Shown here: positions 24,747 to 47,106 of the stretch, one piece after another
Layout: each line of letters begins with the position of its first letter
How positions within the stretch are numbered: the stretch's first letter is position 1
Source: Candidatus Omnitrophota bacterium
GTDB lineage: Bacteria > Omnitrophota > Gorgyraeia > B26-G9
Reading direction: 5' to 3'
Assembly: GCA_018817165.1 (NCBI GenBank)
Contig: JAHITY010000114.1
Coordinates: 17,721-81,720 of the forward strand
Length of the DNA: 64,000 nucleotides
The notes under the pieces: model-generated
The model's database searches: none
Seen by the model: only the letters and a program-made list of their open reading frames with translations
Told to the model about the DNA's origin: nothing
Made by a program: the position numbers and the translations under genes

Positions 24747-25742
24747 ATGAGATTAAAAGAAAAAATATATATTGGATTAATGATTGCCAAGGCAAAACTG
24801 CTGAAACAGAGTATCCCGGTTATTGTCGGGTGGGCACTGACCTATCAATGCAATAAGCAATGTAAATATTGTCTTTTGCCAATCAAGAAAACTGTTGAAC
24901 TCAATACTGCAGAAGTGAAGTTATTAATTGATAATTTCAAAAGACTCGGCACGAAAATGCTGATTTTTACTGGCGGAGAACCGTTTTTACGGAAAGATAT
25001 AATTGAAATAATTAATTATGCTAAACAAAAAAGAATGATTGTTTATGTAAATTCAAACGGATCTAGAATTAGAGATTTTATCGGACAATTAGGTTTAGTC
25101 GACTGCTTGAATATTAGTTTGGAAGGCAATAAACAGACGCATAATGCGATCCGCGGGACAGGTAGTTTTGAGCAGGTAATGGAAAGCGCTGAACTTGCTA
25201 AGCAACATAAAATAAAGTTAAGATTTACAACTACGCTCAATAAGCTTAATCTTGAAAATATAGATTATATCTTAGATTCGGGTGCAAATCTGCAAGCTAA
25301 AGTTAAATTTCAAATACTTACTGATTATTGTCTGGGATCAGTTGAAAAGAATCCGCTTTTGCCGGAAAATCATAAATTAATTAAAGTTATAAAACAACTT
25401 TGCGAATACAAAAAAAAGGGTAAGTATAAAAATATAATCGCCAATCCATTGCCGGCTTTAAAATATTTTCGTTCCTTACCAAAATTACCTCTGATGGCTT
25501 GTGCTTCTGGGAAAATTACTTTTCGAGTTACTCCTGATGGTTTTTTAATTACTTGCGGAGAATCCGGAATAGCGGCAAATCATTTTAGGATTGCCCTGAA
25601 AAATAAAACTTATGAGCAAGTAAAACAAATTTTAGAAAAAATAAAATTTTCGAAACAAAGATGTAGTTGTGGCTGCGCAGACAGAGTCGAAGCATCAATG
25701 CTGTGGAATTTAAACCCTGGGGCTGTTTTGAATAGGCTATAA
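24747..25742 (+). CDS. Radical SAM/SPASM-domain protein (~330 aa). Paralog of 28347..29351 and 46114..47106.
   Basis: LTYQCNKQCKYC, FTGGEPFLRKD, C-terminal CASGKITFRVTPDG...CGES...CSCGC. Confidence 0.75.
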   Translation: MRLKEKIYIGLMIAKAKLLKQSIPVIVGWALTYQCNKQCKYCLLPIKKTVELNTAEVKLLIDNFKRLGTKMLIFTGGEPFLRKDIIEIINYAKQKRMIVYVNSNGSRIRDFIGQLGLVDCLNISLEGNKQTHNAIRGTGSFEQVMESAELAKQHKIKLRFTTTLNKLNLENIDYILDSGANLQAKVKFQILTDYCLGSVEKNPLLPENHKLIKVIKQLCEYKKKGKYKNIIANPLPALKYFRSLPKLPLMACASGKITFRVTPDGFLITCGESGIAANHFRIALKNKTYEQVKQILEKIKFSKQRCSCGCADRVEASMLWNLNPGAVLNRL

Positions 25743-25772
25743 TTTAATTAATACCTAATTTAAGGATAATCA

Positions 25773-26669
25773 ATGCGTTTAAGCGTAATTATCGTTACCT
25801 GGAATTCCCAAAGATTTATTAATGATTGTCTGGAATCAGTATTTTCGCAGCAAATAGATGATATGGAGATAATTGTTATTGATAATGGATCATCAGACAA
25901 TACATTACAAATATTAGAAGGTTTTACTAATCGGATAATTTTGATTAAGAATCAAACCAATACTGGATTTTGCTTGGCGAATAATCAAGCGATTCTAAAA
26001 GCGCAAGGAAAGTATATTTTTACCTTAAATAGCGATGTAATTTTGGGAAAAGGATATTTGAAAAGTTTAATTGGTTGCCTTGAAACTAATAAGCAGATTG
26101 GTATGGTTCAGGGCAAGTTGCTACGATTTGATCGAAAGACAATAGATGGGCTTGGCTTGCGCTTATCTTTGCTGATGCGTTTGTATAATATTCAAGAAAA
26201 TAAGGCTGATAGTAATAAATTTGATAAGCCAAGAGAGATCTTTGGGCCCTGTGCCGCGGCTGCTGTTTATAAAAAAGAACTACTTGCTCAAATTCGTTAT
26301 CAGGATGAGTTTTTTGATGAAAAGTTTTTCTTTTTAGTCGAAGATTTTGATTTAGCCTGGCGAGCGCGGATTCGCGGATGGAAGGCAATGTATGTGCCGG
26401 ATGCGATTGCCTATCATTACCGGGAGAGTTCAGCCTATATTAATAAATTCAAACAATATCTTTCTTTTCGCAATCGATACTTTATGCTGATTAAAAACGC
26501 TGATTGGCGGCATGTTTTTATGCTGATAAGTGGTTTATTTATTTACGAATTACCCCGATTTATATACATGTTGCTATTTAATAAAAATACGATTAAGGCT
26601 CTTAAAGAAATACATGATTATTTGCCGGAACTAAGAAAAAAACGCTATAAACCAGACGGATTTTCATGA
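25773..26669 (+). CDS. GT2 family glycosyltransferase (WbbL/rhamnosyltransferase-like).
   Basis: LSVIIVTWNS...IIVIDNGSSDNT, ED(F)DL(A)WR motif; paralogous to 49675..50655. Confidence 0.7.
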   Translation: MRLSVIIVTWNSQRFINDCLESVFSQQIDDMEIIVIDNGSSDNTLQILEGFTNRIILIKNQTNTGFCLANNQAILKAQGKYIFTLNSDVILGKGYLKSLIGCLETNKQIGMVQGKLLRFDRKTIDGLGLRLSLLMRLYNIQENKADSNKFDKPREIFGPCAAAAVYKKELLAQIRYQDEFFDEKFFFLVEDFDLAWRARIRGWKAMYVPDAIAYHYRESSAYINKFKQYLSFRNRYFMLIKNADWRHVFMLISGLFIYELPRFIYMLLFNKNTIKALKEIHDYLPELRKKRYKPDGFS

Positions 26670-27775
26670 AAAAAATTACCCGCAGAGAGTTTATTAAAAA
26701 TAGCATAAGCTGGGGCGCAGTAGTGGCGGCGCAGTCTCTTTTTCCTGAATATATTTATGCTAAAGAAAAAATAATTACTCCAAGCATCGTCGGTGTAATT
26801 AAGGATAATGATATTAGAAAAGCAACGGAACAAGCTTTGGCGATAATTGGCGGAATTGGAAAAGTTGTTAAGCCAGGGCAAATGGTTTTTATTAAACCAA
26901 ATTATATTGCCGGAGGCTTGATGGGTCATGATCCGGTTACCGCTGGTGAAATTCCGCATCCGGAAGTTGTTGCTTCCGTTGCCCGCGAGTGTGTTAATGC
27001 CGGCGCGAAACATGTGATTATTGGGGAATGGTTTGAGCGGCCGCTTAATATTATCTGGCAGGGTAAAAAGAATGTTGAAGGTGCTCAAGTAAAAAAGTTA
27101 ATTGAGCGTATCAATAAAAAATACGGAGATAAGGTTTCTCTGGTTAATTTGCGCGAATATACAAAATCATTTATTTATGTTCCATCTCAAAGCAAGCTTG
27201 ATTGGCTGGCAATCCCGGATATTGTTAAAAAAGCGGATGTGGTTATATCCATAGCAGTGCTTAAGACTCATCATTGGCCGATGGCAGTTACCTTTGGAAT
27301 GAAAAATTTTATGGGAATCATGCCTTCTGTTATCTATGGAGAGCCGAGAGCTAAATTGCATGATGCCGGAATAAATCAGGTGATTGTCGATATTAATAAA
27401 GGAATAAAGCCGGCCCTGACGGTTATTAGCGGTGCTTATGGAATGGAAGGTGAAGGAGTGGTTAGATCATTTGGCGGTAAATCAGTGGATTTAATCCAAA
27501 GAATCAATGGTTGCCTGGTTATTGCTGGGTATGATCCAGTAGCTACTGATGCGACAGCAACTCGTTTAATAACCAAAGGTTGGATGCCTCAGCCCAAAGA
27601 TAATGATTTGGGTGTTCCTTGGTATATAAAACACTTACGCCTTGCTCATCAGCAGGGACTTGGGCAATTGAGACAGTCCCGGATAGAACTCCGCGGAGAG
27701 AAACTAAGCGATCTGGCAATGTCATGGCAAATGCCGATGAATAATGCATATCCGGAGTTGCCAAACTATGTTTAA
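26666..27775 (+). CDS. Tat-signal exported protein, DUF362-like domain.
   Basis: N-terminal twin-arginine motif TRREFIK followed by a hydrophobic stretch and AxA-like site; the rest resembles DUF362-type proteins (uncertain). Confidence 0.4.
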   Translation: MKKITRREFIKNSISWGAVVAAQSLFPEYIYAKEKIITPSIVGVIKDNDIRKATEQALAIIGGIGKVVKPGQMVFIKPNYIAGGLMGHDPVTAGEIPHPEVVASVARECVNAGAKHVIIGEWFERPLNIIWQGKKNVEGAQVKKLIERINKKYGDKVSLVNLREYTKSFIYVPSQSKLDWLAIPDIVKKADVVISIAVLKTHHWPMAVTFGMKNFMGIMPSVIYGEPRAKLHDAGINQVIVDINKGIKPALTVISGAYGMEGEGVVRSFGGKSVDLIQRINGCLVIAGYDPVATDATATRLITKGWMPQPKDNDLGVPWYIKHLRLAHQQGLGQLRQSRIELRGEKLSDLAMSWQMPMNNAYPELPNYV

Positions 27776-28331
27776 AAGAATTTTTAAAATTATAATAATT
27801 TGCGGCTTTGTTTTGGTACTTTTCAGCGGTAAAGCGTTAAAGGCAGAACAGGACTCTTATAATTTTCCGGTTGAAAATTGTAGCGGAAACTGGGACAAAC
27901 AGACAATAGAAGGAAAAAAAGTAATATCTACAAACGTTTCAGGCAAGATTGCGCAAATAGATCTAATAGTGCCTGAAGATGGGTATTATCAATTATATAT
28001 CAGTCTTTACCATTGCTGGCAAGAGTTTACTCCCTTTGTTTTTTTTAAAGCCAAGGATATCAAGGGAAAGCGATTTGAGGCAAATGTTTTTTCTGAGCCA
28101 AGGTGGTATCTTGATCCAGGCCAGGGACGTTGGGAATATCGCTGTATTAGTGGCAATCCTTATTGGCAGCTATCCAAGGGAATATTAAGTGTTAAATTTT
28201 GGATTGGTTCTCGTTTGTCTTGCTGGGAAGATGATAATCAAACTTCGGTTGAATCGTTTATTGCAATAGATTGTTTTATTTTGAAAAAAATTAACCAAGA
28301 AACAATGTCTCAAGATCATGTAACTCAATGA
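27768..28331 (+). CDS. Secreted hypothetical protein (signal peptide). Start moved to the ATG at 27768.
   Basis: MFKRIFKIIIICGFVLVLFSGKALKA signal-like N-terminus; 8-nt overlap with the upstream gene; Trp/Cys-containing mature domain with no recognisable family. Confidence 0.4.
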   Translation: MFKRIFKIIIICGFVLVLFSGKALKAEQDSYNFPVENCSGNWDKQTIEGKKVISTNVSGKIAQIDLIVPEDGYYQLYISLYHCWQEFTPFVFFKAKDIKGKRFEANVFSEPRWYLDPGQGRWEYRCISGNPYWQLSKGILSVKFWIGSRLSCWEDDNQTSVESFIAIDCFILKKINQETMSQDHVTQ

Positions 28332-28346
28332 AGAAGGATATGAATA

Positions 28347-29351
28347 ATGCTGAATCCTATTGTGAAAAGTACCCAAAAGGCAGACATTTTCTTTAATATT
28401 TTAGGTGCTAGAATTTTTAATAATTTCAGGCCAATTTTTGTAAATTGGCCATTAACTTATAAATGCAACTACAGATGTCCTTATTGTAAAATTTACGAAA
28501 ATCAAAGGTCCGAGCTTTCCTGTGATGATATAAAGTTGAGAATAGCTAAATTAGTAAAGTTGGGACTAAAGTGGATTATTTTTACGGGAGGAGAGCCTTT
28601 TCTTAGAAATGATTTGCCTGAGATAATTGCTGCCGCTAAAAAACATAATTTGTTTGTTTGTGTTAATTCTAACGGATCTTTTTCTCCGGAGATGCTTGGA
28701 AAATGTGGCAATATAGATCTGTTGAACCTAAGCCTGGATGGATTGGAAGAAATTCACGATAAGATACGCGGAAGAGGTGCTTTTAATCATATGCTGTCTG
28801 CTCTTGAGTCCGCGAAATTATTAAAAATCAAGGTGAAAATCACAACAACTATTCATAGAATTAATATGAATAAAATAGAAAGCATTTTGTCTTTCTGTAT
28901 AAAAAACAATATTATGCTTTCTTTTCAAATGCTTAACAGGAATTGTCTGGGGAGCAAGGAGGTAAATAATCTTTCTCTGTCAAATGCTGAATATAAACAG
29001 GCAATCAAAAATATTATTCTACTTAAAAAGTCTAAGAAATATTCTAAAGCTATATCACATTCACTAAGCTCTTTAAAATTTTTAGCCCAACGCGCTGATT
29101 TAAGTAAATTGCAATGTGCTTCTGGAAAAATTGCTTTTAGAGTTACTCCTGAGGGCAAGATGTATGCTTGTAATCATCACTCCTTTTTAAATGATAAAGA
29201 AAGTAATGGAGTAATTGATCTAAAAGAAGATTTAAAATCCATTAGACTTAAAATTAAACAATTAAGCAAATTGGATTTATCGAATTGTCATTGCTCCTGC
29301 ATGAATAGAATAAGACTTAATTTGTTATGGAATTATGGATTTGGATTTTAA
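28347..29351 (+). CDS. Radical SAM/SPASM-domain protein. Paralog of 24747 and 46114.
   Basis: LTYKCNYRCPYC, FTGGEPFLRND, CASGKIAFRVTPEG...CNHH...CHCSC. Confidence 0.75.
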   Translation: MLNPIVKSTQKADIFFNILGARIFNNFRPIFVNWPLTYKCNYRCPYCKIYENQRSELSCDDIKLRIAKLVKLGLKWIIFTGGEPFLRNDLPEIIAAAKKHNLFVCVNSNGSFSPEMLGKCGNIDLLNLSLDGLEEIHDKIRGRGAFNHMLSALESAKLLKIKVKITTTIHRINMNKIESILSFCIKNNIMLSFQMLNRNCLGSKEVNNLSLSNAEYKQAIKNIILLKKSKKYSKAISHSLSSLKFLAQRADLSKLQCASGKIAFRVTPEGKMYACNHHSFLNDKESNGVIDLKEDLKSIRLKIKQLSKLDLSNCHCSCMNRIRLNLLWNYGFGF

Positions 29352-29398: not shown

Positions 29399-30922
29399 AT
29401 GCGAAAAACTAAAATAAAGCTGGCTATAATAGTTTTAATTGGATTCATGCTCCGTGTTTATAAGCTTGCTGATTTAAGCCTATGGATCAATGAAGCGAAA
29501 GTTGTTTGTTTTGCAAAAAAAGACTTGTTGTCTGTTTTTCAATTCACAGATTTTTATAGGCCAGTTTATCTTCTGTTATCAAGGATTTGGCTGAATGTTT
29601 TTGGGATGGATGAATTCTTCGTTCGGTTGCTTCCAGCTGTGTTAGGCTCTCTTTCAATTATTTTAATGTATAGAATTGGAAGGATGCTATGGGACAGAAA
29701 AACCGGATTAGTAGCTGCTTATATTTTATGCTTATCTGTTTTTCATGTTTATTTTTCTCGTCAAGGAAAAGGTGTTTCTTCTCTTTTGGTTTTTTTGTGT
29801 TTAATATCCTTCCTGTTAATGCTAAAAATACATACTAAAAAAAAGACAAAGTATTATTTCTATATTTTCTTTACTAATATTTTAATTTTATGCTCTCACC
29901 CCGTGGGGATTTTTTATGTTTTTACAGAAAAAATTTGCCATCTATTTTTAAATAATAGAAAGGTAGATATTAAATGGAATATTCTATTAATTGCTATAGG
30001 ATGTGTTTTGTTTCCCTGGTTTTATTATGTGGGATTATTTACTCCTGATAAATTTAGTGTTAATTTTCTTCCTGTTTCATTGCTTGATATAGCTAAATTT
30101 TTTGAGGTTTTTAGTTGCGGCGGACGACAGTTAGTACATGGTGGGGAAGGGTATAAACTGTCTTATGCGAGAATGATTATGCCATGGGTGCTTACATCTA
30201 TTTACTTTTCTATTTTTGTTTCAGAGCTGTTTTGTAATAAAAATAAGATAAAGAATGTATTGTTGGTATGGTTGCTGTTGCCTTTAATCTTAATTTTAAC
30301 ATATTCTTATTTTATTCAGCCGATTTATTGGCCGAGATATGTAATCTATTCATTGCCGGCGTTTTATTTGCTTTTGGCTCATTTTATAGCGGGCTTTCGT
30401 AAAGGTTGTGTCATTATTTTAGTTGCGGTTTCCTTTCTATCGATCGGTTCATTAAATAATATTTACAATCCTCAATTTAAAGAAGGTTTTAAAGAGGCAA
30501 CTTATTTTCTAAAAGATAAGTTGAAAAATAATGATATTGTTGTTTTTGCTCCGGCTGAAATGATGGCGGGTATTTTTTATTATCTAAAAAATGACGACTT
30601 GGATATTATGGGTAGAATAGATGATGATAAAGGAATGTTGTTTGATAAAAAATGGGAAACTGATTTTATATTTGAAAATAATAGATTTATTTGTTTGCAG
30701 TTTGATGATATTGCGCGATTTTCAGAGGATTTTAGTTTTGAAAAATATAATTTTGCCGGGGCCCCAGCTGATGGTATCTGGGTTTTTTATGCTCCTGATT
30801 GGGCATTGAATGAAAATTCTAAATGGTTGATTGAGCACTTAGAAGAAAATTATGAGCCTATTTTTAATGAGTTTTTTAAACGTCAAAATTTGTTTTTAAA
30901 ATATTACAGAGTTAATAAATAA
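29399..30922 (+). CDS. ArnT/PMT-like GT-C glycosyltransferase (GT39/GT83-like). A polyprenyl-phosphate-sugar donor is expected.
   Basis: N-terminal region LSLWINE...FYRPVYLLL...FG.DEFFVRLLPAVLGSLSIILMYRIGRMLWDRKTGLVAAYILCLSVFHVYFS matches the characteristic ArnT/PMT N-terminal loop and helix pattern; polytopic. Confidence 0.65.
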   Translation: MRKTKIKLAIIVLIGFMLRVYKLADLSLWINEAKVVCFAKKDLLSVFQFTDFYRPVYLLLSRIWLNVFGMDEFFVRLLPAVLGSLSIILMYRIGRMLWDRKTGLVAAYILCLSVFHVYFSRQGKGVSSLLVFLCLISFLLMLKIHTKKKTKYYFYIFFTNILILCSHPVGIFYVFTEKICHLFLNNRKVDIKWNILLIAIGCVLFPWFYYVGLFTPDKFSVNFLPVSLLDIAKFFEVFSCGGRQLVHGGEGYKLSYARMIMPWVLTSIYFSIFVSELFCNKNKIKNVLLVWLLLPLILILTYSYFIQPIYWPRYVIYSLPAFYLLLAHFIAGFRKGCVIILVAVSFLSIGSLNNIYNPQFKEGFKEATYFLKDKLKNNDIVVFAPAEMMAGIFYYLKNDDLDIMGRIDDDKGMLFDKKWETDFIFENNRFICLQFDDIARFSEDFSFEKYNFAGAPADGIWVFYAPDWALNENSKWLIEHLEENYEPIFNEFFKRQNLFLKYYRVNK

Positions 30923-30939: not shown

Positions 30940-32829
30940 ATGTGTGGAATTTGTGGTAAATTTTTTTATTCAACGGATAAGCGGGTCAACGAAAAAACTA
31001 TTTATGATATTTGTCAAAGTTTGTATAGAAGAGGCCCTGATGATGAAATCATTAAGGTTTATCGAAATGTTGGATTAGGGATGCGGCGACTTTCGATTGT
31101 AGATGGAGAAAGACAATTATGCTTGAGAAATGAAGATGCTACTATTTTTCTTGTATTTAATGGGGAAATATATAATTCTAAGGATTTTATAAATACCTTG
31201 ATTAGTAAGGGACATAAATTTAATTTTAATAATGATGTTGAGTGTATAATCCATTTATATGAAGAATTTGGGCTTGATTTTATTAGTAAACTAAATGGAA
31301 TGTTTTCTTTAGCTTTATTTGATAGTAGCTTGAATAGACTTATACTTGTTAGGGATAGAATTGGGATTAAACCATTGTATTATAGCGAGATTAATGGGGG
31401 GATTGTGTTTTCTTCGACTCTAAAGTCGTTATTATTAAATAACGAAATATCTAAGGAGTTAGATATTAGAGCATGCAATCATTATTTTTCGTATAATTAT
31501 TTTCCGCTTGAATATACTCCGATTTCTTCAATAAGAAAGCTTTTACCTGGACATTTTTTGGTTTGTGATAATAATGGCTTAAAGATTGAAAAGTTTTGGG
31601 AATTTAGGTATAAAAATAAAGACAGTAAAAAGAAAACTTTGGATGATTATAGCAATGAATTTAAAGTATTATTTAATGAAGTTATGGCAACACAGATTAA
31701 TGCTGATCATTCACCAGGAATATTTTTAAGCGGAGGCCTGGACTCATCGACAATAGCATATTTTCTTTCTAAACAAGGTAAAAATATTAAATCATTTAGT
31801 CTTGGGTTTGCGGAAGAATCTTTTGATGAACGAGAGTATTCAAGGAATATTGCTAATAGGTTTCAGTTTGATTATTATGAGATGGTCGTTAATGAAAATT
31901 TAAATAAACTGGTTGATGATTTTTCAGAAAGTTTGGATATTCCTGTGGGGGAACCTTCGTTTATTAATATGCTTTCTATTTCAGCTTTTTCTGCAAAGCA
32001 TGTAAAGACTGTTTTTTCTGGTGATGGTGCTGATGAATTGTTTGGAGGATATAGCCAGTATTTTGCTGATTCGATGATGCATAATTTTAACTTAGTCCCT
32101 AGTTTTTTAAAAAAAATGATTGTTGATCGTATAATCAATAATTCATCGTTATCTTATTCCTGGATGAATAGAAAGTCTAAGTTTGAGGCCGTCTTAAATG
32201 CTCTTGAAAGAAAGGAAACTATTCCGCACTATATTTTTAGAGAAAATTTCAGTATTGATGATAAATCAGATTTATATTCTAATGTTTTTTACAGCCAAAT
32301 GAAACAAAAAAATCATCTTAATGATCCGTATCTGGTTTTCAAAAAAAAGTATTCGGAGGCAAATACAAATAATTATCTGGAACAAGCCATGTATTTTGAT
32401 ACTACGATTTGTTTACCGGATGGTATGTTGCAAAGGGTCGATATGGCTAGTATGTATCATTCATTAGAAGTGAGAGTTCCGTTTTTGGATAATCGGATTA
32501 TTAATTTTGCTCAATCACTGCCACTTAGTTTAAAGATACGTAATTTGAAGGGCAAGTGTATATTAAAAAACGTGATGTCAGATTCTCTCTCGAAGCACAT
32601 GATTAATCGACGTAAGCATGGTTTTAGTGTGCCAATTGGAAAGTGGTTGAAGGATGAACTGGCAATATTCGCTAAAGATATTGTTAATTCGAAAAATTTA
32701 AGGGGATATGATCTTTTAAATAAGCAATATGTAGTTAATCTTTTGGATGTTCATTTGAAAGGGAAAGTAGATAATGGCAGGAAATTATGGAATATATTAG
32801 TATTTCTATTGTGGTTAGATAATATATAA
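30940..32829 (+). CDS. Asparagine synthase (glutamine-hydrolysing)-family amidotransferase.
   Basis: N-terminal MCGICG nucleophile; PP-loop SGGLDSS; ~630 aa. In glycan clusters, WbpS-like homologs amidate uronic acids. Confidence 0.8.
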   Translation: MCGICGKFFYSTDKRVNEKTIYDICQSLYRRGPDDEIIKVYRNVGLGMRRLSIVDGERQLCLRNEDATIFLVFNGEIYNSKDFINTLISKGHKFNFNNDVECIIHLYEEFGLDFISKLNGMFSLALFDSSLNRLILVRDRIGIKPLYYSEINGGIVFSSTLKSLLLNNEISKELDIRACNHYFSYNYFPLEYTPISSIRKLLPGHFLVCDNNGLKIEKFWEFRYKNKDSKKKTLDDYSNEFKVLFNEVMATQINADHSPGIFLSGGLDSSTIAYFLSKQGKNIKSFSLGFAEESFDEREYSRNIANRFQFDYYEMVVNENLNKLVDDFSESLDIPVGEPSFINMLSISAFSAKHVKTVFSGDGADELFGGYSQYFADSMMHNFNLVPSFLKKMIVDRIINNSSLSYSWMNRKSKFEAVLNALERKETIPHYIFRENFSIDDKSDLYSNVFYSQMKQKNHLNDPYLVFKKKYSEANTNNYLEQAMYFDTTICLPDGMLQRVDMASMYHSLEVRVPFLDNRIINFAQSLPLSLKIRNLKGKCILKNVMSDSLSKHMINRRKHGFSVPIGKWLKDELAIFAKDIVNSKNLRGYDLLNKQYVVNLLDVHLKGKVDNGRKLWNILVFLLWLDNI

Positions 32830-41250: not shown

Positions 41251-42090
41251 ATGTTTAAAAATAAACAAATATTTATTATTATTTCATTAGTTTTTTTAAT
41301 TTTCAGCGTAAATAGTTTTGCTGCAGAAGTTGAAAAATATGATTGTTTTACTCTTCTGCCTTGGGCTGTTGGACAATTTGTTGAGTATCAAATTATAGGT
41401 ATTGAAAATGGGGGAGTAGAAGATCGATATAAAGTCAGTGTGATCGGGGAAGAAACAGTTGATAATGAAACATTTTTTTGGATCAGATTTGAGATTATAA
41501 AAAATAGACAGCTTCAAATTGCTTTTAAAGCATTGGTATTACCATTAAGTGAAACAGAATTCGCAAGAAACCCAGAAATTTATCTTTCGCAATGGCTGAT
41601 GTGGCTTTTGAGTCATTCTAAACAGTTGATTTTGGAATTGCCAAATAATCAGTTATTTAAAGTTGACAGTAAAGAGTTCTTTAAAAAAGCTGATGAGTTT
41701 TTGGGTGATTCCTTCTTTAATGAAATTTCGTATGAGAAAAGCGAAGTGGATTATTCCAAGTTAACCTATGATGATTCCAAGGTGAATATCTGTGTGTTAG
41801 CGGGAGTATTTGATTGTTTTCGTTTTCTAGTTAGAACTACGCCTCAGGATAGTTTTGATGATGAAGGGATAGATTTATGGCGATCTGAAAAGGTTCCTTT
41901 TTTAGGCATAGTAAAAATGGAATTTTCTATTGTTGGTTATAAAGAAAAGAATCGAATGCGGGAGATTAAGCGCGCTGCTAGTAATGATTGGTTAGCTAAA
42001 ATCTACAATCATTTTTTTAGTCAGCGGATTCCGTATCGAGAACGGAAAGATATTCATATAATGGAATTGGTTGATTTCAAGTCTAATTAG
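41251..42090 (+). CDS. Secreted hypothetical protein.
   Basis: Signal-peptide-like N-terminus MFKNKQIFIIISLVFLIFSVNSFAAE; no recognisable domain. Confidence 0.4.
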   Translation: MFKNKQIFIIISLVFLIFSVNSFAAEVEKYDCFTLLPWAVGQFVEYQIIGIENGGVEDRYKVSVIGEETVDNETFFWIRFEIIKNRQLQIAFKALVLPLSETEFARNPEIYLSQWLMWLLSHSKQLILELPNNQLFKVDSKEFFKKADEFLGDSFFNEISYEKSEVDYSKLTYDDSKVNICVLAGVFDCFRFLVRTTPQDSFDDEGIDLWRSEKVPFLGIVKMEFSIVGYKEKNRMREIKRAASNDWLAKIYNHFFSQRIPYRERKDIHIMELVDFKSN

Positions 42091-42094
42091 GTAT

Positions 42095-43921
42095 ATGTTC
42101 ATGATTAAAAAACAGCATTGTGCGAATAGTATTTCAATATTCCTGTTATTAGTTGCTCTTATTACAATTTACAACCTCCCTTTATTGCTCAATTTGGATA
42201 AAGCCTTTTTTCCCGTTCAGAAAAACTATATTAATACTACTTATTTTACATATTTTTTTGCTTATTTCTATCACTATTCTATTACACTGTCACATCATTT
42301 TCCTTTTTGGTGTTCTTTTTACGAGGGGGGGTCCCCTTGGATTAGTCATCCTGCAGACATAAGTTTAAATCCGTTTTCTTTGGTATTGTTGGTATTTGGA
42401 GTTATTAAAGGCTTAAATTTAGCAAGCTATCTTTTTTCTGTTATAGGCGCGGGGTCAATGTATGTTTTAATGAGGAAGGTCTTTAGGTTACCGAAATTTG
42501 GAGCAGTTTACTCTGCTATTGTGTTTTCGATGAGCGGATTTTTTGCATATATGCAAGCTAATGGTTATCTTTATGCTAGAGATACATTGCTGTTGCCATT
42601 ATTAATGATATCTTTTTTGAAGTCTAGGAATGACAAAAGGTTTATTTTTGTTTCTGCTTATTTTTTAGCATTTCTATTTATGCAATCTTGTTTGTATTTT
42701 CCAGTAATAGTTTTATTTCTTTTTTTTATTGTAATGTCTGACTCTTTTATGATTAATAAAAAAACTATATGTTTTGATAAAAAATATTTCATTGTTTTTG
42801 GGGTAACGATAACTCTGGCTCTTTTATATTCTATGCCAAAACTTTTACCGCTATTAAATGACTTAAATATTCAAACTGTGGCTGAAAAATTTGATTATAC
42901 CATGAGGATAAGCCAGGCTAATACATTCCCTTTATTATTGAAACATATTTTGAAGCCGGTAGATTCTAGTGCCGGAACAATGTTTATGGGGGTTTTGCCC
43001 TTGTTTTTATGTACGGTTTCAATAGTAATACTATTTAGCCGATTAAAAAAGTGGATTTTTGTGTTAGCTGTTTTTATTTGGCTTTCTTTGGGGCCTAACG
43101 CTATTATTGACTTACATTATATATTTTGGCATCTGCCAATTTTTAAGTCAATTAGGGAAATATCAAAATATTATGCTTTAATTTTAGTTTTTCTTATAAG
43201 TTTAATCAGCGGACACTTTTTTATCATTTTAAAAAATAATGCATCTTCAAAAAAATATCATATTATTTCTCTAGTAATAATTGTTCTCACATATCTAAAT
43301 TTGTGTTGGGCAAATGCGGGGTATTTTAATGTTTATAAACAAAAAATCACGGATAAATTCTCCCTTAAGAATGTTACTTATGTTAAGGCTATGAATATGC
43401 ATCTTGCCGATGATAGTTCTATACTGCCATTAAGATTAGCATTATTTTTTAAGGGGTACGGCATTGTTGGGGCTAAAGTGTGGGATCCGTATTTAGATTT
43501 CTCTTCAAATATAATCCCGGAATATTTTGTTTTAACACAGTATGCTTTTTTATCTCCCAGTACTAAGGCTATTTTTATTAAAAACCCTGGATATAAAGGT
43601 GAAGTATGGTTTTTAGATGATGCGAATATCGTAAAAGCATATTCAAATTATCAATCAAAGATTGAGGTTCAAGTTGTTGTTAATAAACCGGGGGGAATGT
43701 TTATTAATCAAAGTTATTCGCATAGGTGGAGTGTAAATGAGGGGGAGATTTTCAATAGAGATAATAGACTTTTTATAGTCCTTGATCGGGTGGGACAATA
43801 TAAAATAGTGTTAAGGTATATTCCTATATATTTTTATGCGGGATTGTTTATTTGTTTTGTCTCAGTTTTTGGTTCTATATTTATTTTTTTTAAGATATCT
43901 AAACGAAAAGTTAGCGCGTAA
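42095..43921 (+). CDS. Polytopic membrane protein, YfhO/GT-C-like (putative glycosyltransferase or glycan polymerase). Start moved to the ATG at 42095.
   Basis: More than 12 hydrophobic helices; N-terminal pattern FPFWCSFYEGGSPWISHP resembling the YfhO-family loop; C-terminal soluble domain and a final TM helix. Confidence 0.4.
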   Translation: MFMIKKQHCANSISIFLLLVALITIYNLPLLLNLDKAFFPVQKNYINTTYFTYFFAYFYHYSITLSHHFPFWCSFYEGGSPWISHPADISLNPFSLVLLVFGVIKGLNLASYLFSVIGAGSMYVLMRKVFRLPKFGAVYSAIVFSMSGFFAYMQANGYLYARDTLLLPLLMISFLKSRNDKRFIFVSAYFLAFLFMQSCLYFPVIVLFLFFIVMSDSFMINKKTICFDKKYFIVFGVTITLALLYSMPKLLPLLNDLNIQTVAEKFDYTMRISQANTFPLLLKHILKPVDSSAGTMFMGVLPLFLCTVSIVILFSRLKKWIFVLAVFIWLSLGPNAIIDLHYIFWHLPIFKSIREISKYYALILVFLISLISGHFFIILKNNASSKKYHIISLVIIVLTYLNLCWANAGYFNVYKQKITDKFSLKNVTYVKAMNMHLADDSSILPLRLALFFKGYGIVGAKVWDPYLDFSSNIIPEYFVLTQYAFLSPSTKAIFIKNPGYKGEVWFLDDANIVKAYSNYQSKIEVQVVVNKPGGMFINQSYSHRWSVNEGEIFNRDNRLFIVLDRVGQYKIVLRYIPIYFYAGLFICFVSVFGSIFIFFKISKRKVSA

Positions 43922-44236
43922 ATTGTTAGTTTTTGTAAAATCTTATTAAATTTAAAAAAATGAAAGCAGTCGGTTTAAGTTTGGTGTAAAGAAAAATCCT
44001 GAGTAAATGTGAAATAATTGGGATGAGCATAGTATAAAAAAGAATAAGGGTATAGGGGGAAATATACTATTGACAACTTATATTTTTTTGCTGTAGATTT
44101 CTAAAGAATAGGATTGTGGCTGTCCATCCGGTTAAATGAATGTATAATGGTCTTAAAGAAATAGACAACTTTTTAATTATGAACGAATTATGGGAGTAAA
44201 AATTTTTTTCTTGAAGTAATAAAGTTAAGGTAAATT

Positions 44237-45508
44237 ATGAAAATAATGCTAATCCAGCCAGATAGAAGGCGGCATAGATCTTTTTTGGAGCAACCTCTTG
44301 CCATAGCGATTTTAGCTGCATTAACCCCTAAAGATATTGAAGTGGAATTTTATGATGAGGGTTTGGAAAAAATTCCTTATTATAGGAAAACAGATTTAGT
44401 TGCTATAACGGTAAATATTTTTACTGCTAAAAAAGCTTACGAAATTTCCCGCGAATTTAAAAAGTATAATGTGCCGGTGGTTTTAGGAGGGATTCATCCG
44501 TCATTGGTTCCAGAAGAAGCAATTCAGTATTGTGATTCTGTGGCTATTGGAGAAGCTGAGGAAATATGGTTAAAGATAATTGGCGATCTTAAAATTAATA
44601 AGTTGAAAAGGTTCTATGTCAGTTCAGGCCGTGCAGAATTAGATGGGATTTTACCTATGAGAGATATTTTTAAAGGTAAAAAGTATTTACCATATCATTT
44701 GGTGGAATTTGGAAGAGGATGCCGGCATAGTTGTAGTTTTTGTGCAGTAAGTTCTTTTTATAAAAGCACCTATACTCATAGGTCGATAAAAGATTTAATT
44801 CGTGAGATTAAAGGACTTGAGCGGGGAAAATTATTCTGTTTTGTAGATGATAATATAGCTATGGATTCGGAAGTTACCAAGAATATGCTTAGGGAACTTT
44901 GTAAACTGAACGTAAAATGGATGGGGCAGGCTAGTACGAAAATTATTTACGATAAGGAGCTGCTAGATTTAATGGCGAAAAGTGGTTGTCTTTGGTTGCA
45001 TATTGGGTTTGAAGCGATAGATAATCAAACACTTAAGAGGTACAATAAACATCATAATTTAGGGGTAGATTATGGTGAATTAGTGAACCAACTTAGGGAA
45101 AGAGGCATTTCTGTGCACGGAACATTTATTTTTGATTGGAAACATTCTGATCAATTGATTTTTTCTAGAACACTTGAGTTCGCTTTGAAATATAAACTTT
45201 TTTATGCAGGGTTTAATTTGTATTCTCCTATTCCTGGGACTCCATTGTATAAGGAATTGTTATTGAATGGAGAGATTTGTTCGGAGCCGTGGTGGTTGAT
45301 TGGTAATCGTGAATTCGTAAATAAAATGGTGGGGATGGAAAGAATTAAACAAGAATGTACTAATATTTCTATGAAGTTTTACAAGGTGACATCAATACTT
45401 AGAAGAGTTGAGTTTAAAGCTAATTTTCGGAGTTGTTTTAAGGCTCTATTTTTTCTCTTTATAAATTTTATAAAGAAAATTGGTTGTGCCAAAAAGAAAA
45501 ATATTTAA
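44237..45508 (+). CDS. B12-binding domain radical SAM protein.
   Basis: MKIMLIQPD...LAIAILAALTP...VEFYDE; FGRGCRHSCSFC. Confidence 0.75.
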   Translation: MKIMLIQPDRRRHRSFLEQPLAIAILAALTPKDIEVEFYDEGLEKIPYYRKTDLVAITVNIFTAKKAYEISREFKKYNVPVVLGGIHPSLVPEEAIQYCDSVAIGEAEEIWLKIIGDLKINKLKRFYVSSGRAELDGILPMRDIFKGKKYLPYHLVEFGRGCRHSCSFCAVSSFYKSTYTHRSIKDLIREIKGLERGKLFCFVDDNIAMDSEVTKNMLRELCKLNVKWMGQASTKIIYDKELLDLMAKSGCLWLHIGFEAIDNQTLKRYNKHHNLGVDYGELVNQLRERGISVHGTFIFDWKHSDQLIFSRTLEFALKYKLFYAGFNLYSPIPGTPLYKELLLNGEICSEPWWLIGNREFVNKMVGMERIKQECTNISMKFYKVTSILRRVEFKANFRSCFKALFFLFINFIKKIGCAKKKNI

Positions 45509-45799
45509 TTATAATTACCAGAGAATACAGAGGAATAATATGAATAGACTATTGGTAAAATTCCTCGCAGTATTGAATATTTTAATGTCTTTAGGCTTCG
45601 GGGTTTAGGCTTTGCTTTGCGTGGTACTGGTCTCCAATTTATCATAATTATATAAATTTATTTTGCTTATAAATCAGCACTAATTATTGTGATTTTCAAT
45701 ATATAAAGTTTAAAAATATAGTTATTTGGAAATATATTGGCAAATACATAACAAAAGGAGCACTGCAAAAAGAAGCTATTCTCATGCTATGGTTGCGGA

Positions 45800-46057
45800 A
45801 AAGCGTATGAAATCGGCTAGTATGCATTGCAGGAATTAAGCAAGTGAAATCAGATGGACTGGTAAAAGAGATAATTATTGTATATGATAATTCTGAAGAT
45901 AATCTAAAATCTATCTTTCGGGATATTAATTCTTTGGATATAATAAAACTATATCATTTTTATAATTAAGGAAATGCTTCGGTTATTAAAACTAGTTTAG
46001 AGAAATCTCCCTGTGATATTGTCTTGATTCAAGATGGGGATATTGAACCCAACTAGT
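45800..46057 (+). pseudogene. Truncated, stop-interrupted remnant of a GT2 (Dpm1-like) glycosyltransferase gene homologous to 48983..49678.
   Basis: Nucleotide-level similarity to 49040..49270 (e.g. gatataataaaRctatatcat; attcaagatggggat). The translation VKEIIIVYDNSEDN...DIIKLYHFYN*GNASVIKT...VLIQDGD carries an in-frame stop and ends abruptly. Confidence 0.55.
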
Positions 46058-46113
46058 ATTATGCTTATTAGCTATATGTTTTAGGTTTTTAATATAAAAG
46101 GAAACGATTCATT

Positions 46114-47106
46114 ATGAGGATAAAAGATAAGATTTATTGTGCTTATTCTATTTTAAAATCTAGGATTTTGAATGTTAGAATTCCTTTGGCTGTGCGTTGG
46201 CAATTGACAAATAAATGCACCTTGCGTTGTAAGTATTGCAATATCTATGATAAGGGGGGTAGCGAATTAGGCTTAAGTCAGGTAAAGGATGTTTTATGTC
46301 AGTTGAAAGGTTTGGGAACAAAACGCATATCTTTTAGTGGTGGGGATGTTTTGTTAAGAGACGATTTTTCTGAAATACTAGACTGCTGTATCGATTATGG
46401 TATTTATCCGGAGTTAAATTGTAACGGTGTTTTATTTTACGACAAAGCGCATAAGCTAAAAAAACTGGATTTTGTTAAGTTTAGTTTGGATGGACCGAAG
46501 CAGGTGCATGATTCTTTGAGAGGGGATGGGTCATTTGATAAGGTTATGAAATCTGTTGAGGCTTGCTTGAAAAACAAAATAAAATTTGGATTTGCGATGA
46601 CATTAACAAAATTCAATATTAATGATTTAGATTTCTTGCTGCAGACCGCTAAAAAATATGAGACTATTGTTGCTTTTCAGCCAGTTAAATCAATGCATAA
46701 AGGCATTGAAGGAATTGATGAATTTTTAGGTTCTGAAGAAGTTTTTAGAAAGGCGTTAAAGAAGCTTATCCTAGAAAAAGGAAGAGGATGTGAAAATATA
46801 CGTAATTCGATGAGGGAGTTGAAATATATTTATGATTGGCCGAATTTAAAAGAGATGAAATGCTATGCTGGGCAGATTTTTTGTATAATTGGCCCTGATG
46901 GAGATGTCTATCCTTGTGATCGGGTTGATGGTTTTATGAATAACACCATTTTGCCAAATTGTCAAAAACTGGGGATAGAAGAGGCGATAAGGCAGTTGCC
47001 TGAATTTTATTGTAAAGGGTGCGGGTTTTGCGGGGCATTAGAATTAAATCATTTAATGAATTTTAAATTCGGTGTGCTTAAGTCAATAAAAAGGATAATA
47101 TCTTGA
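46114..47106 (+). CDS. Radical SAM/SPASM-domain protein. Paralog of 24747 and 28347.
   Basis: QLTNKCTLRCKYC; FSGGDVLLRDD; C-terminal CYAGQIFCIIGPDGDVYPCD...CKGCGFCG. Confidence 0.75.
   Translation: MRIKDKIYCAYSILKSRILNVRIPLAVRWQLTNKCTLRCKYCNIYDKGGSELGLSQVKDVLCQLKGLGTKRISFSGGDVLLRDDFSEILDCCIDYGIYPELNCNGVLFYDKAHKLKKLDFVKFSLDGPKQVHDSLRGDGSFDKVMKSVEACLKNKIKFGFAMTLTKFNINDLDFLLQTAKKYETIVAFQPVKSMHKGIEGIDEFLGSEEVFRKALKKLILEKGRGCENIRNSMRELKYIYDWPNLKEMKCYAGQIFCIIGPDGDVYPCDRVDGFMNNTILPNCQKLGIEEAIRQLPEFYCKGCGFCGALELNHLMNFKFGVLKSIKRIIS

What the first reader, a model, noticed from the sequence alone, without database searches (positions are those of the whole stretch)
24747..47106. Three paralogous ~330-aa radical SAM/SPASM proteins with no adjacent precursor-peptide genes
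24747..25742, 28347..29351 and 46114..47106 share LTY(K/Q)CN..C.YC, FTGGEPFLR and C-terminal C.SGKI.FRVTP.G...C...C.C motifs. SPASM enzymes usually mature peptides or proteins (anSME, PqqE, MftC, sactisynthases). Here the flanking intergenic gaps are 30-50 bp and hold no obvious RiPP precursor. The neighbours are glycosyltransferases, a Tat-exported DUF362-like protein and a small secreted protein (27768..28331). So either a protein substrate in trans (anSME-like maturation of an exported enzyme) or a non-peptide glycan substrate is implied. A fourth SPASM protein (10518) and the giant one (46) raise the total to five.
Basis: partly seen in the sequence, partly recalled or inferred. Interest (0 to 1): 0.6.

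Follow-up and report, generated by a model that had tools for sequence, protein, structure and literature searches.

The report
Sugar-tailoring Twitch radical SAM paralogs
Three related iron-sulfur "radical SAM" enzymes in a huge cell-surface sugar-polymer gene cluster of an Omnitrophota bacterium belong to a sizeable uncharacterised family that most likely modifies sugars, not peptides, and could be mislabelled as antibiotic-peptide machinery by genome-mining tools.

Summary
The three ~330-aa paralogs are real (30-39% identity, E 1e-44 to 1e-69). They are not full SPASM enzymes. Like the other two "SPASM" proteins in the window, they carry CX9-15GX4C plus a C-terminal CxC/CxxC and lack CX2CX5CX3C. 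That is a Twitch domain, with one auxiliary cluster. No NCBIfam equivalog cut-off is reached. There is no RRE domain. Twenty family genes in 10 loci have no conserved adjacent small ORF. The window holds no sulfatase.

The "30-50 bp gaps" claim fails for the third paralog. Its gaps are 605 and 272 bp. The upstream one holds a decayed GT2 fragment, not a precursor.

The family is large: at least 150 50%-identity representatives with full-length hits. It occurs in Omnitrophota, Deltaproteobacteria, Pseudomonadota and Elusimicrobia MAGs. In 14 of the 15 loci examined it sits among glycan genes, and in 13 near a B12-radical SAM gene. Tandem paralogs are common.

Two recurrent fusions, in opposite orders, join it to DegT/DnrJ/EryC1 sugar aminotransferases. 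The upstream B12-rSAM type is fused to a GT2 elsewhere. The Tat-DUF362 and small secreted protein co-occur only in Omnitrophota and lack a Cys/Ser maturation motif.

Best reading: cytoplasmic sugar-tailoring Twitch enzymes, possibly BtrN-like dehydrogenases feeding transamination. The chemistry is unproven.

The parts
24747..25742 (+). Twitch radical SAM paralog 1 (331 aa)
   Evidence: Pfam Radical_SAM 82.5 bits, no SPASM hit. CX3CX2C at 35-42, CX12GX4C at 252-270, CSCGC at 306-310. AF2 model pLDDT 90 with a beta-hairpin 258-268 between C252 and C270, and helix 289-298 before C306/C308.
28347..29351 (+). Twitch radical SAM paralog 2 (334 aa)
   Evidence: 38.7% id to paralog 1. Radical_SAM 84.7 bits, no SPASM hit. 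Same Cys pattern. The position after DUF362 and the small secreted protein is conserved in L001 and L006.
46114..47106 (+). Twitch radical SAM paralog 3 (330 aa), the most divergent
   Evidence: 30-35% id to the other two. SPASM 20.7 bits, below GA 21.5. CX2CX2C tail. Orthologs: L006:8982-9965 (52%) and L017:8001-8996 (40%), each directly after a B12-rSAM gene.
23206..24708 (+). B12-binding radical SAM gene immediately upstream of paralog 1; recurrent partner
   Evidence: Pfam B12-binding plus Radical_SAM. Orthologs directly precede a family member in L003, L006, L008 and L017. In L017 this gene is fused to a GT2 domain (43% id over 467 aa).
25773..26669 (+). GT2 glycosyltransferase downstream of paralog 1
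   Evidence: Pfam Glycos_transf_2 97 bits. Conserved next to the rSAM in L003 and L005, and before DUF362 in L001, L006 and L008.
26666..27775 (+). Tat-signal DUF362 protein (distant LarA-clan relative)
   Evidence: Pfam DUF362 102.5 bits. The TRREF[IL]K motif and 63-72% identity hold in four Omnitrophota orthologs. There is a single invariant Cys. DUF362 and DUF2088/LarA share Pfam clan CL0471 (PMC11770544). It is part of the Omnitrophota cassette only.
27744..28331 (+). Small signal-peptide protein (likely start 27768)
   Evidence: No Pfam or NCBIfam hit. Four orthologs are 42-43% identical. Invariant residues are mostly aromatic (SEPRWY, GRWE). There is no invariant Cys.
29399..30922 (+). 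GT-C (PMT_2) membrane glycosyltransferase downstream of paralog 2
   Evidence: Pfam PMT_2 46.7 bits. Synteny is conserved in L001, L006 and L008.
14933..16276 (+). DegT/DnrJ/EryC1 sugar aminotransferase of the same cluster
   Evidence: Pfam 230.8 bits. It is 35.6% identical to the DegT half of the DegT-Twitch rSAM fusion in L019.
30940..32829 (+). AsnB-like glutamine amidotransferase
   Evidence: Pfam Asn_synthase 259 bits plus GATase_7. It recurs next to family members in L001, L006, L008 and L009.
44237..45508 (+). B12-binding radical SAM gene upstream of paralog 3
   Evidence: Pfam Radical_SAM 57.6 bits, B12-binding 38.9 bits.
45826..46065 (+). Decayed GT2 gene fragment in the 605-bp gap upstream of paralog 3
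   Evidence: blastx gives 52% identity to residues 20-101 of GT2 48983-49678, E 5e-20, with two in-frame stops.
47379..48926 (+). B12-binding radical SAM gene downstream of paralog 3
   Evidence: Pfam B12-binding 57.3 bits, Radical_SAM 41.4 bits.
10518..11579 (+). Fourth rSAM with a SPASM-Pfam hit but only a Twitch-like Cys set
   Evidence: SPASM 45.7 bits. CX9-15GX4C at 289-307 and CMRCC at 347-351, with no CX2CX5CX3C. 27-32% id to the three paralogs over the core only.
46..2238 (+). 730-aa rSAM with a Twitch-like domain and a ~270-aa C-terminal extension of unknown function
   Evidence: Radical_SAM 65.7 bits, SPASM 36.6 bits. CX9-15GX4C at 378-396 and CX3C at 451-455, with no CX2CX5CX3C.

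Best explanation
The three genes encode cytoplasmic radical SAM enzymes with a Twitch domain. Each should hold one SAM-cleaving [4Fe-4S] cluster plus one auxiliary cluster held by four conserved Cys. They belong to a sizeable, uncharacterised family.

They tailor carbohydrate intermediates of a cell-envelope glycan, either nucleotide-linked or polyprenyl-phosphate-linked sugars. That glycan is then assembled by GT2/GT4 enzymes and many periplasmic GT-C (PMT_2/YfhO) transferases.

They work as a module with a B12-binding radical SAM enzyme and a GT2, and often with a DegT-type PLP aminotransferase.

The most likely chemistry is inferred, not shown. It is BtrN-like: the 5'-deoxyadenosyl radical abstracts H from a sugar carbinol carbon, the fully ligated auxiliary cluster takes the electron, and a keto-sugar results. 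DegT then aminates that keto-sugar, or it is further modified. The three paralogs would act at different positions or on different sugars.

Shown: paralogy, Twitch architecture, absence of RRE and precursors, glycan-cluster context in several phyla, and the DegT and GT2 fusions. Inferred: sugar substrate, dehydrogenase chemistry and cytoplasmic site of action.
For: Twitch architecture:
- CX9-15GX4C is present in 138 of 142 family members and CX2CX5CX3C in none. C252 and C270 are invariant; C306 and C308 are conserved in at least 90%.
- The AF2 model (pLDDT 90) puts the Cys before and after a beta-hairpin and after helix alpha2'. This is how Twitch is defined for BtrN and SkfB (PMC6231123).
- Family members never carry a precomputed SPASM Pfam hit, whereas the next-best non-members do.

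No peptide-recognition domain:
- The best PDB match, SkfB, aligns residues 104-396 only, after its RRE.
- No PqqD hit on any of the 39 cluster ORFs scanned against Pfam (46-52342).

No precursor:
- For 20 family genes in 10 loci the flanking gaps are mostly -59 to +53 bp, with no conserved small ORF.

Context:
- All six Omnitrophota loci share the synteny DegT / GT-C / GT4 / B12-rSAM / GT2 / ... / rSAM / GT-C / AsnB.
- Deltaproteobacterial, Elusimicrobial and other loci put family members beside GT2, Bac_transf, GT4, Glf, DegT, SDR, polysaccharide deacetylase, DUF2079/YfhO and B12-rSAM.

Fusions (Rosetta-stone evidence):
- P0143 is Twitch-rSAM followed by DegT. P0148 is DegT followed by Twitch-rSAM.
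- Each fusion is seen in several assemblies.
- Their rSAM halves are 31-36% identical to the window paralogs, 33-36% to paralogs 1 and 3.
- L019 also has an overlapping DegT/rSAM gene pair.
- The ortholog of B12-rSAM 23206 is fused to a GT2 in L017 and overlaps a family member.

Fold:
- Fold neighbours include the sugar and nucleotide enzymes BlsE, DesII, AbmM, viperin and MoaA at scores similar to the peptide enzymes.
Against: - No family member has been characterised, and no reaction is demonstrated.
- The closest solved relatives by sequence and fold are peptide-modifying enzymes. SkfB gives E 2e-32, followed by SuiB, CteB and PqqE.
- BtrN itself matches only weakly and over the N-terminal core (E 8e-7).
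- DegT is not in every locus. It is absent within 8-10 kb in L010, L015, L016, L017 and L018.
- The window has three paralogs but one DegT, so dehydrogenation followed by transamination cannot explain all copies.
- L010 has three tandem paralogs with no glycan genes on a 10.5-kb contig.
It is not a statistical enrichment test.
Confidence: 0.62

Rival explanations
1. The enzymes modify the lipid part of a glycolipid, the polyprenyl carrier or a membrane lipid rather than the sugar. Possible chemistries are C-C coupling, saturation or cyclisation, as in Tes/GDGT-type or hopanoid rSAM enzymes.
For: - Partnership with B12-rSAM proteins is typical of lipid-tailoring systems.
- The clusters are dominated by membrane GT-C enzymes that use polyprenyl-P-sugars.
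- A conserved N-terminal helix (residues 3-19) could be membrane-associated.
- There is a weak N-terminal match to the GDGT/macrocyclic archaeol synthase 7tol (E 4e-13).
- L017 has an adjacent LPG_synthase_TM-methyltransferase gene.
Against: - The DegT fusions point to a keto- or amino-sugar, not a hydrocarbon.
- There is no similarity to Tes beyond the rSAM core.
- The loci contain no isoprenoid or lipid biosynthesis genes.
Confidence: 0.12
2. The enzymes are anSME-like maturases. They would modify a protein in trans before export: the Tat-exported DUF362 enzyme, the small secreted proteins or a GT-C partner.
For: - In Omnitrophota the cassette GT2 / Tat-DUF362 / small secreted protein / rSAM is conserved.
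- Tat export implies a pre-folded, possibly modified or cofactor-bearing protein.
- anSME is among the fold neighbours.
- The enzymes lack an RRE, as anSME does.
Against: - DUF362 and the small protein are absent from all nine loci outside the Omnitrophota synteny group.
- No anSME HMM assignment.
- anSME has a full SPASM domain with two auxiliary clusters, whereas these proteins have one.
- The secreted protein has no invariant Cys and reads S-E-P-R-W, not C/S-x-P-x-R.
- DUF362 has one invariant Cys with no FGly-type motif.
- The only 'Sulfatase'-Pfam neighbour read here (L016) lacks the C/S-x-P-x-R motif. A second one at the edge of L019 was not read.
Confidence: 0.08
3. The enzymes are RiPP maturases (sacti/ranthipeptide-like). 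Their precursor would be encoded elsewhere or be too short or divergent to recognise.
For: - The best sequence and structural matches are SkfB, SuiB, CteB and PqqE.
- A pair of short similar reading frames (NWRPVPRK[A/P]KPK) flanks paralog 3 on the minus strand, with synonymous differences.
Against: - No RRE domain or PqqD partner, and no leader peptidase or exporter in the window.
- No conserved small ORF beside 20 family genes.
- The NWRPVPRK frames occur only in this window. They are on the opposite strand and differ in position within their ORFs. The ortholog of paralog 3 in L006 has no gaps at all.
- All RiPP equivalog HMMs score far below their cut-offs.
Confidence: 0.04
4. The enzymes are MoaA-like cofactor biosynthesis enzymes. 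They would make or insert a cofactor for the DUF362 (LarA-clan) protein or for another enzyme of the cluster.
For: - MoaA is a Twitch enzyme and appears among both HMM and fold hits.
- DUF362 belongs to the clan of the NPN-cofactor enzyme LarA.
Against: - MoaA HMM scores are 50-86 bits against cut-offs of 231-325.
- MoaA has a three-Cys auxiliary site with an open iron. This family conserves four Cys.
- The family occurs mostly without DUF362.
- No LarB/C/E or Moa partners are in the window.
Confidence: 0.04

Closest known systems
BtrN (butirosin 2-deoxy-scyllo-inosamine dehydrogenase), the founding Twitch radical SAM enzyme
   Same: - Radical SAM core plus a Twitch domain with a fully Cys-ligated auxiliary cluster: one Cys before and one after a beta-hairpin, and two after helix alpha2'.
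- No RRE.
- A carbohydrate-type substrate.
- It works with a DegT-family aminotransferase that aminates the ketone it produces (my own knowledge of the pathway).
   Different: - Sequence similarity is weak and limited to the N-terminal core (E 8e-7).
- BtrN is ~250 aa and acts in an aminoglycoside antibiotic pathway, not in envelope-glycan clusters with GT-C enzymes and B12-rSAM partners.
- Dehydrogenase activity is not shown for this family.
SkfB (sporulation killing factor sactisynthase, PDB 6efn)
   Same: - It is the best sequence match (E 2e-32) and the best Foldseek match, covering the rSAM core and the Twitch domain, including a C-terminal CxC motif.
   Different: - SkfB has an N-terminal RRE and an adjacent precursor gene. 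Its Aux I site has an open coordination position (PMC6231123).
- The family here has no RRE and no precursor, conserves four Cys, and sits in glycan clusters.
DesI/DesII and BlsE: radical SAM enzymes acting on nucleotide- or nucleoside-linked sugars
   Same: - A rSAM enzyme paired with a DegT-family enzyme on a TDP-sugar (DesI/DesII; my own knowledge).
- BlsE matches over its whole length with similar size (TM 0.67/0.68).
   Different: - Identity is only 15-16% in the structural alignment.
- No shared diagnostic motifs were tested.
- Those enzymes belong to secondary-metabolite pathways.
anSME / SPASM maturases (AlbA, PqqE, MftC)
   Same: - The same broad SPASM/Twitch subfamily of radical SAM enzymes.
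- The CX9-15GX4C hairpin motif.
- anSME also lacks an RRE.
   Different: - The full seven-Cys SPASM motif and second auxiliary cluster are absent.
- HMM scores are far below the cut-offs.
- There is no sulfatase, PqqA/D or MftA/B partner.

Membership tests
Radical SAM superfamily (PF04055) | CX3CX2C cluster motif and a partial TIM-barrel core | tested here: met
   The motif is present in all three paralogs. Pfam gives 73-85 bits against GA 29.5. The AF2 model shows alternating beta/alpha core elements.
SPASM domain (PF13186 / seven-Cys motif) | CX9-15GX4C - gap - CX2CX5CX3C - gap - C, binding two auxiliary clusters | tested here: not met
   The first half is present. CX2CX5CX3C is absent in all five window proteins and in 0 of 142 family members. 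Pfam SPASM gives no hit for two paralogs and 20.7 bits (below 21.5) for the third.
Twitch subclass (BtrN, MoaA, SkfB) | A truncated SPASM with one auxiliary cluster. The ligands are a Cys before and a Cys after a beta-hairpin, plus two Cys after helix alpha2'. | tested here: met
   C252 and C270 are invariant and flank the predicted hairpin 258-268. C306 and C308 are conserved in at least 90% of members and follow helix 289-298. The definition is taken from PMC6231123. Cluster binding itself cannot be tested here.
Anaerobic sulfatase-maturating enzyme (TIGR03942) | Score above the equivalog cut-off (349 bits) | tested here: not met
   It is not among the best 25 NCBIfam hits for any of the three paralogs. 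All listed hits score 98 bits or less.
Anaerobic sulfatase-maturating enzyme (TIGR03942) | A sulfatase substrate with a C/S-x-P-x-R motif encoded nearby | tested here: not met
   No Sulfatase Pfam hit on any of the 39 window ORFs scanned (46-52342). The 'Sulfatase' neighbour in L016 lacks the motif. The rest of the genome was not available.
RiPP radical SAM maturases (sactisynthase, ranthipeptide, PqqE, MftC, streptide) | An RRE/PqqD-like peptide-binding domain, fused or stand-alone | tested here: not met
   Only ~25 residues precede the rSAM core. The SkfB alignment starts after its RRE. No PqqD Pfam hit in the window.
RiPP radical SAM maturases (sactisynthase, ranthipeptide, PqqE, MftC, streptide) | An adjacent conserved precursor peptide gene | tested here: not met
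   For 20 family genes in 10 loci the gaps are mostly under 55 bp, and no small ORF is conserved between loci.
RiPP radical SAM maturases (sactisynthase, ranthipeptide, PqqE, MftC, streptide) | Score above an NCBIfam equivalog cut-off | tested here: not met
   PqqE 66-90 against 381; MftC 83-90 against 265; SkfB 51-68 against 300; PapB 51-56 against 340.
BtrN-like radical SAM sugar dehydrogenases | A fully Cys-ligated Twitch cluster and functional coupling to a DegT-family aminotransferase | tested here: met
   Four conserved Twitch Cys. DegT fusions occur in both orders and are recurrent. There is an overlapping DegT/rSAM pair in L019 and an rSAM-DegT-rSAM arrangement in L013.
BtrN-like radical SAM sugar dehydrogenases | Homology to BtrN beyond the generic core, and alcohol-to-ketone activity | tested here: inconclusive
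   BtrN matches only residues 27-115 of the profile, at E 8e-7. Activity cannot be tested with these tools.
MoaA (GTP 3',8-cyclase) | Score above the equivalog cut-off, and a three-Cys auxiliary site with an open iron | tested here: not met
   TIGR02666 scores 50-86 against 284. This family conserves four Cys.

The most novel reading that the evidence does not exclude
The B12-radical SAM + Twitch-radical SAM + GT2 set, with or without DegT, is a widespread and undescribed 'radical glycan-tailoring' module of anaerobic bacteria (Omnitrophota, Elusimicrobia, Deltaproteobacteria). The Twitch enzyme would be an NAD- and O2-independent dehydrogenase. It would install keto groups on nucleotide- or lipid-linked sugars of envelope glycans. 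Those keto groups would then be aminated by DegT or C-methylated by the B12 enzyme. The result would be a class of heavily modified cell-surface sugars not yet seen chemically.
Probability: 0.3. Interest if true: 0.65.

Novelty: new variant of a known kind. Interest (0 to 1): 0.45.

Why it matters
- Annotation. Genome-mining pipelines and many annotators treat 'radical SAM/SPASM' genes as RiPP markers. This family is a sizeable group that would be a false positive, and it should be annotated as Twitch-type glycan-tailoring candidates.
- Biology. It points to unusually radical-rich sugar chemistry in the envelopes of uncultured anaerobes. The window has 14 radical SAM genes in about 49 kb (46-48926), within a ~52-kb glycan cluster.
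- Experimental handle. The natural DegT-rSAM fusion proteins supply both halves of a putative oxidise-then-aminate step in one polypeptide.
- Limit. The result is of moderate rather than high surprise, because radical SAM sugar-tailoring enzymes with Twitch domains are an established kind.

Tried and rejected
- Rfam on the whole window at gathering thresholds found nothing. A permissive search of 3860-4320 also found nothing.
- The short direct repeat flanking paralog 3 (45590-45640 and 47250-47290) was tested as a structured RNA on both strands. Folding z-scores were +0.5 to +1.1, so there is no structure. It has only two copies in the window. The minus-strand frames reading NWRPVPRK were considered as precursor candidates. 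They were rejected as unsupported because they are not conserved in any other locus.
- The first search for related loci attempt failed because the alignment was too diverse. The second returned only three genome loci.
- Literature searches for DUF362, for Omnitrophota plus radical SAM, and for Twitch plus polysaccharide found nothing describing this family.
- S-E-P-R-W in the secreted protein was considered as an FGly-type motif. It was rejected because it does not fit C/S-x-P-x-R.
- The L016 'Sulfatase' neighbour was considered as an anSME substrate. It was rejected because the motif is absent.

Full report
**Setting**

The window has ~33% G+C, and almost all genes lie on the + strand. Its 3' end carries mraZ-rsmH-ftsL-ftsI-murE-murF-mraY-murD-ftsW, so this is a bacterium. 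Homologs and syntenic contigs are labelled Candidatus Omnitrophica/Omnitrophota.

Positions 46-52342 form one very large glycan-assembly cluster. It contains:
- GT4 genes at 4313 and 18015.
- GT2 genes at 5485, 25773, 48983 and 49675.
- At least six PMT_2-type GT-C membrane transferases (8889, 12126, 13519, 16254, 29399, and probably 20762), plus a YfhO-like protein (42071).
- A carbamoyltransferase (6441) and a methyltransferase (11576).
- A DegT aminotransferase (14933) and an AsnB-like amidotransferase (30940).
- An SGNH hydrolase (32853, minus strand) and an SDR epimerase/dehydratase (38423).
- A Wzy_C/O-antigen-ligase-like protein (50669).
- Fourteen radical SAM genes. Nine have B12-binding domains (2235, 19103, 23206, 34028, 35450, 37045, 39506 on the minus strand, 44237, 47379). 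Five are of the SPASM/Twitch kind (46, 10518, 24747, 28347, 46114).

**The observation**

The three ORFs exist at the stated coordinates and are clearly paralogous: 38.7% identity (E 3e-66), 34.8% (E 4e-48) and 29.8% (E 2e-45).

Paralog 3 is more divergent (LTNKCT..., FSGGDVLLR, CYAGQIFCIIGPDG...). The neighbours are as described.

The statement about intergenic gaps holds for the first two genes (38/30 bp and 15/47 bp). It does not hold for the third, which has 605 bp upstream and 272 bp downstream.
- The upstream gap contains a decayed copy of the GT2 gene 48983. It shows 52% identity over 82 codons, E 5e-20, with two in-frame stops.
- A ~45-nt element recurs in the downstream gap.

**SPASM or Twitch**

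Pfam SPASM does not hit paralogs 1 and 2, and it is just below threshold for paralog 3. All five 'SPASM' proteins of the window carry CX9-15GX4C, and none has the second SPASM signature CX2CX5CX3C.

In an alignment of 142 diverse family members:
- The three SAM-cluster Cys and the two hairpin Cys are invariant.
- Two C-terminal Cys (consensus CxxCWC) are conserved in at least 90%.
- 138 of 142 have the hairpin motif, and 0 of 142 have the second motif.

The AlphaFold2 model (pLDDT 90.1, pTM 0.89) places C252 and C270 on either side of a beta-hairpin. It places C306 and C308 after a helix. This is the arrangement that defines the Twitch domain in BtrN and SkfB (PMC6231123). These are therefore Twitch enzymes with one auxiliary cluster that has four available Cys ligands.

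**Which known family?**

None. Every NCBIfam equivalog is far below its cut-off. The best score is 98 bits against cut-offs of 265-650.

By sequence the nearest solved structure is SkfB (E 2e-32). The alignment covers only its core and Twitch domain, not its N-terminal RRE.

Foldseek gives a mixed list at similar scores:
- Peptide enzymes: SkfB, SuiB, CteB, PqqE, anSME.
- Sugar or nucleotide enzymes: BlsE, DesII, AbmM, viperin, MoaA.

The fold therefore does not decide the substrate class. The SkfB paper itself warns that sequence networks do not predict this.

**Size and spread of the family**

The word-indexed search suggested a tiny Omnitrophota family. A full HMM scan of 1.84 billion representatives tells a different story. 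It found at least 150 50%-identity representatives with end-to-end matches at E < 1e-86. Nearly all are 315-350 aa.

In the 5.8-billion-protein database, members score 209 bits or more and never carry a SPASM Pfam hit. The score then falls to under 195 bits for SPASM-positive 'mycofactocin-like' proteins. Named members come from Omnitrophota, Deltaproteobacteria, Pseudomonadota and Elusimicrobia MAGs.

**Genomic context**

Among the Omnitrophota contigs (L001/L007, L003, L005, L006, L008) the order is conserved:

DegT - GT-C - GT4 - B12-rSAM - GT2 - Tat-DUF362 - ~190-aa secreted protein - Twitch rSAM(s) - GT-C - AsnB - ... - Twitch rSAM - ~280-aa protein - YfhO

Each contig has two to four family paralogs.

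More distant members show these neighbours:

| Locus | Neighbours of the family member(s) |
|---|---|
| L009 | B12-rSAM, polysaccharide deacetylase, AsnB, DUF2079 |
| L011 | B12-rSAM, YfhO, SDR |
| L013 | DUF2079 / rSAM / DegT / rSAM / DUF2079 |
| L015 | Three tandem paralogs with three GT2, Bac_transf, GT4 and B12-rSAM |
| L016 | Three B12-rSAM and SGNH proteins |
| L017 | A GT2-rSAM fusion, and a B12-rSAM-GT2 fusion overlapping a family member |
| L018 | B12-rSAM, UDP-galactopyranose mutase, GT2 |
| L019 | PMT_2, YfhO, DUF2079, DegT, and three paralogs including the fusion |

Only L010 (three tandem paralogs) lacks visible glycan genes on its short contig. DUF362 and the small secreted protein appear only in the Omnitrophota cassette.

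**Fusions**

Three long proteins appeared among the best 150 representatives.
- P0143 is Twitch-rSAM followed by a DegT/DnrJ/EryC1 aminotransferase.
- P0148 has the opposite order, DegT followed by Twitch-rSAM.
- P0169 is two rSAM modules.

The rSAM halves of the DegT fusions are 31-36% identical to the window paralogs over most or all of the domain. That is close to the 30-39% range the paralogs show to each other. Each fusion occurs in two or three near-identical versions, on several contigs from different assemblies.

In L019 the DegT-rSAM fusion is followed by a separate DegT gene that overlaps another family member. The fusion's DegT half is 35.6% identical to the window's DegT 14933.

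Independently, the B12-rSAM that precedes paralog 1 (23206) has a 43%-identical ortholog in L017. That ortholog is fused to a GT2 domain and overlaps a family member.

Together these fusions tie the family to PLP-dependent sugar amination and to glycosyl transfer.

**No peptide or protein substrate in sight**

- Twenty family genes in ten loci have flanking gaps mostly between -59 and +53 bp. No small ORF is shared between loci.
- No RRE/PqqD, leader peptidase or peptide exporter is found among the 39 cluster ORFs scanned against Pfam.
- The small secreted protein has no invariant Cys. Its invariant residues are mainly aromatic, and its S-E-P-R-W does not fit C/S-x-P-x-R.
- The DUF362 protein is highly conserved (63-72%) and has an invariant Tat motif. 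It has only one invariant Cys and no maturation-type motif. It has no solved relative by sequence. It belongs to the same Pfam clan as LarA racemases (PMC11770544).
- The only 'Sulfatase'-Pfam neighbour read here (L016) lacks the formylglycine motif. A second one at the edge of L019 was not read.

**Mechanism proposed**

*Shown.* Cytoplasmic proteins (no signal peptide) with a SAM cluster motif and a four-Cys Twitch site. They are genetically coupled to DegT, B12-rSAM and GT2 genes in glycan clusters.

*Inferred.* They abstract a hydrogen atom from a sugar carbon of a nucleotide- or polyprenyl-phosphate-linked intermediate.

A fully ligated auxiliary cluster is the arrangement seen in the dehydrogenases BtrN and anSME, where it is thought to accept the electron from the substrate radical (and my own knowledge). 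The DegT coupling mirrors two precedents: BtrN followed by BtrR/BtrS-type transamination, and the DesI/DesII pairing (my own knowledge).

I therefore favour oxidation of a secondary alcohol to a ketone that is then aminated or otherwise modified. I hold the sugar-tailoring reading at about 0.6. The specific dehydrogenase chemistry I put at about 0.3, because many loci, and two of the three window paralogs, have no dedicated DegT.

**Comparison and novelty**

The family works like known Twitch sugar enzymes, but it fails every membership test for a characterised family. Radical SAM tailoring of sugars is established for antibiotics (my own knowledge). Three things appear undescribed in the literature searched:
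- A large Twitch family embedded in envelope-glycan clusters rich in GT-C enzymes.
- Its recurrent pairing with B12-rSAM genes.
- Its fusion to DegT.

I rate it a new variant of a known kind, of moderate interest. It also has practical value as a caution against calling such genes RiPP maturases.

Noticed in passing
window 4035-4181 and 17739-17885: A 147-nt intergenic direct repeat (97% identical). Each copy lies ~130 nt upstream of a GT4 glycosyltransferase gene (4313, 18015). It folds stably (-51 kcal/mol, z = -3.2, 0 of 200 shuffles as good). It has no Rfam match even at permissive thresholds, and none of the fetched related loci contains it. It could be an undescribed cis-regulatory RNA or a recent duplication.
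   Followed up: partly
window 56285-56407 and 58002-58118: Two ~120-nt intergenic repeats (80-81% identical), rich in GGTAACG-like motifs. They lie just upstream of murE (56445) and murF (58172) in the dcw cluster. Their function is unknown.
   Followed up: no
window 45826-46065: A pseudogene remnant of a GT2 glycosyltransferase. It is 52% identical to residues 20-101 of gene 48983 and has two in-frame stops. It lies in the 605-bp gap upstream of the third rSAM, which indicates a past duplication and decay in this part of the cluster.
   Followed up: yes
window 45590-45640 and 47250-47290: A short direct repeat (~45 nt, core GGNACTGGYCNCCAATT) flanks the third rSAM gene. On the minus strand both copies read NWRPVPRK(A/P)KPK with several synonymous differences. 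There is no predicted RNA structure, only two copies occur in the window, and it is not seen in other loci. Unexplained.
   Followed up: partly
window 2235-48926: Nine mutually divergent B12-binding radical SAM genes (~21-36% identity to each other) lie in the same cluster. With the five SPASM/Twitch-type genes this gives 14 radical SAM genes between 46 and 48926, about 49 kb. That is an unusually high density for a glycan locus.
   Followed up: partly
window 8113-8889, 22363-23139, 41251-42090, 27744-28331: Four small membrane-anchored or secreted proteins have no Pfam match. 8113 and 22363 are paralogs (~37% id). Three abut or overlap a GT-C membrane transferase gene (8889, 20762, 42071). 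The fourth (27744) lies one gene upstream of GT-C 29399, separated from it by rSAM 28347. They may be periplasmic accessory or carbohydrate-binding subunits of the GT-C enzymes.
   Followed up: partly
L017:3692-5839 and 5836-8004; protein P0293: Natural fusions of GT2 glycosyltransferase domains with radical SAM domains: GT2-rSAM (715 aa), B12-rSAM-GT2 (722 aa) and GT2-SPASM rSAM (600 aa). They suggest that radical chemistry is physically coupled to glycosyl transfer in these lineages.
   Followed up: partly
L017:14639-16996 (runs off the locus): A called gene for a 16,218-residue protein lies a few genes downstream of the rSAM module, after two TPR proteins. It is consistent with the giant proteins reported for Omnitrophota (bioRxiv 10.64898/2026.06.07.730766).
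   Followed up: no
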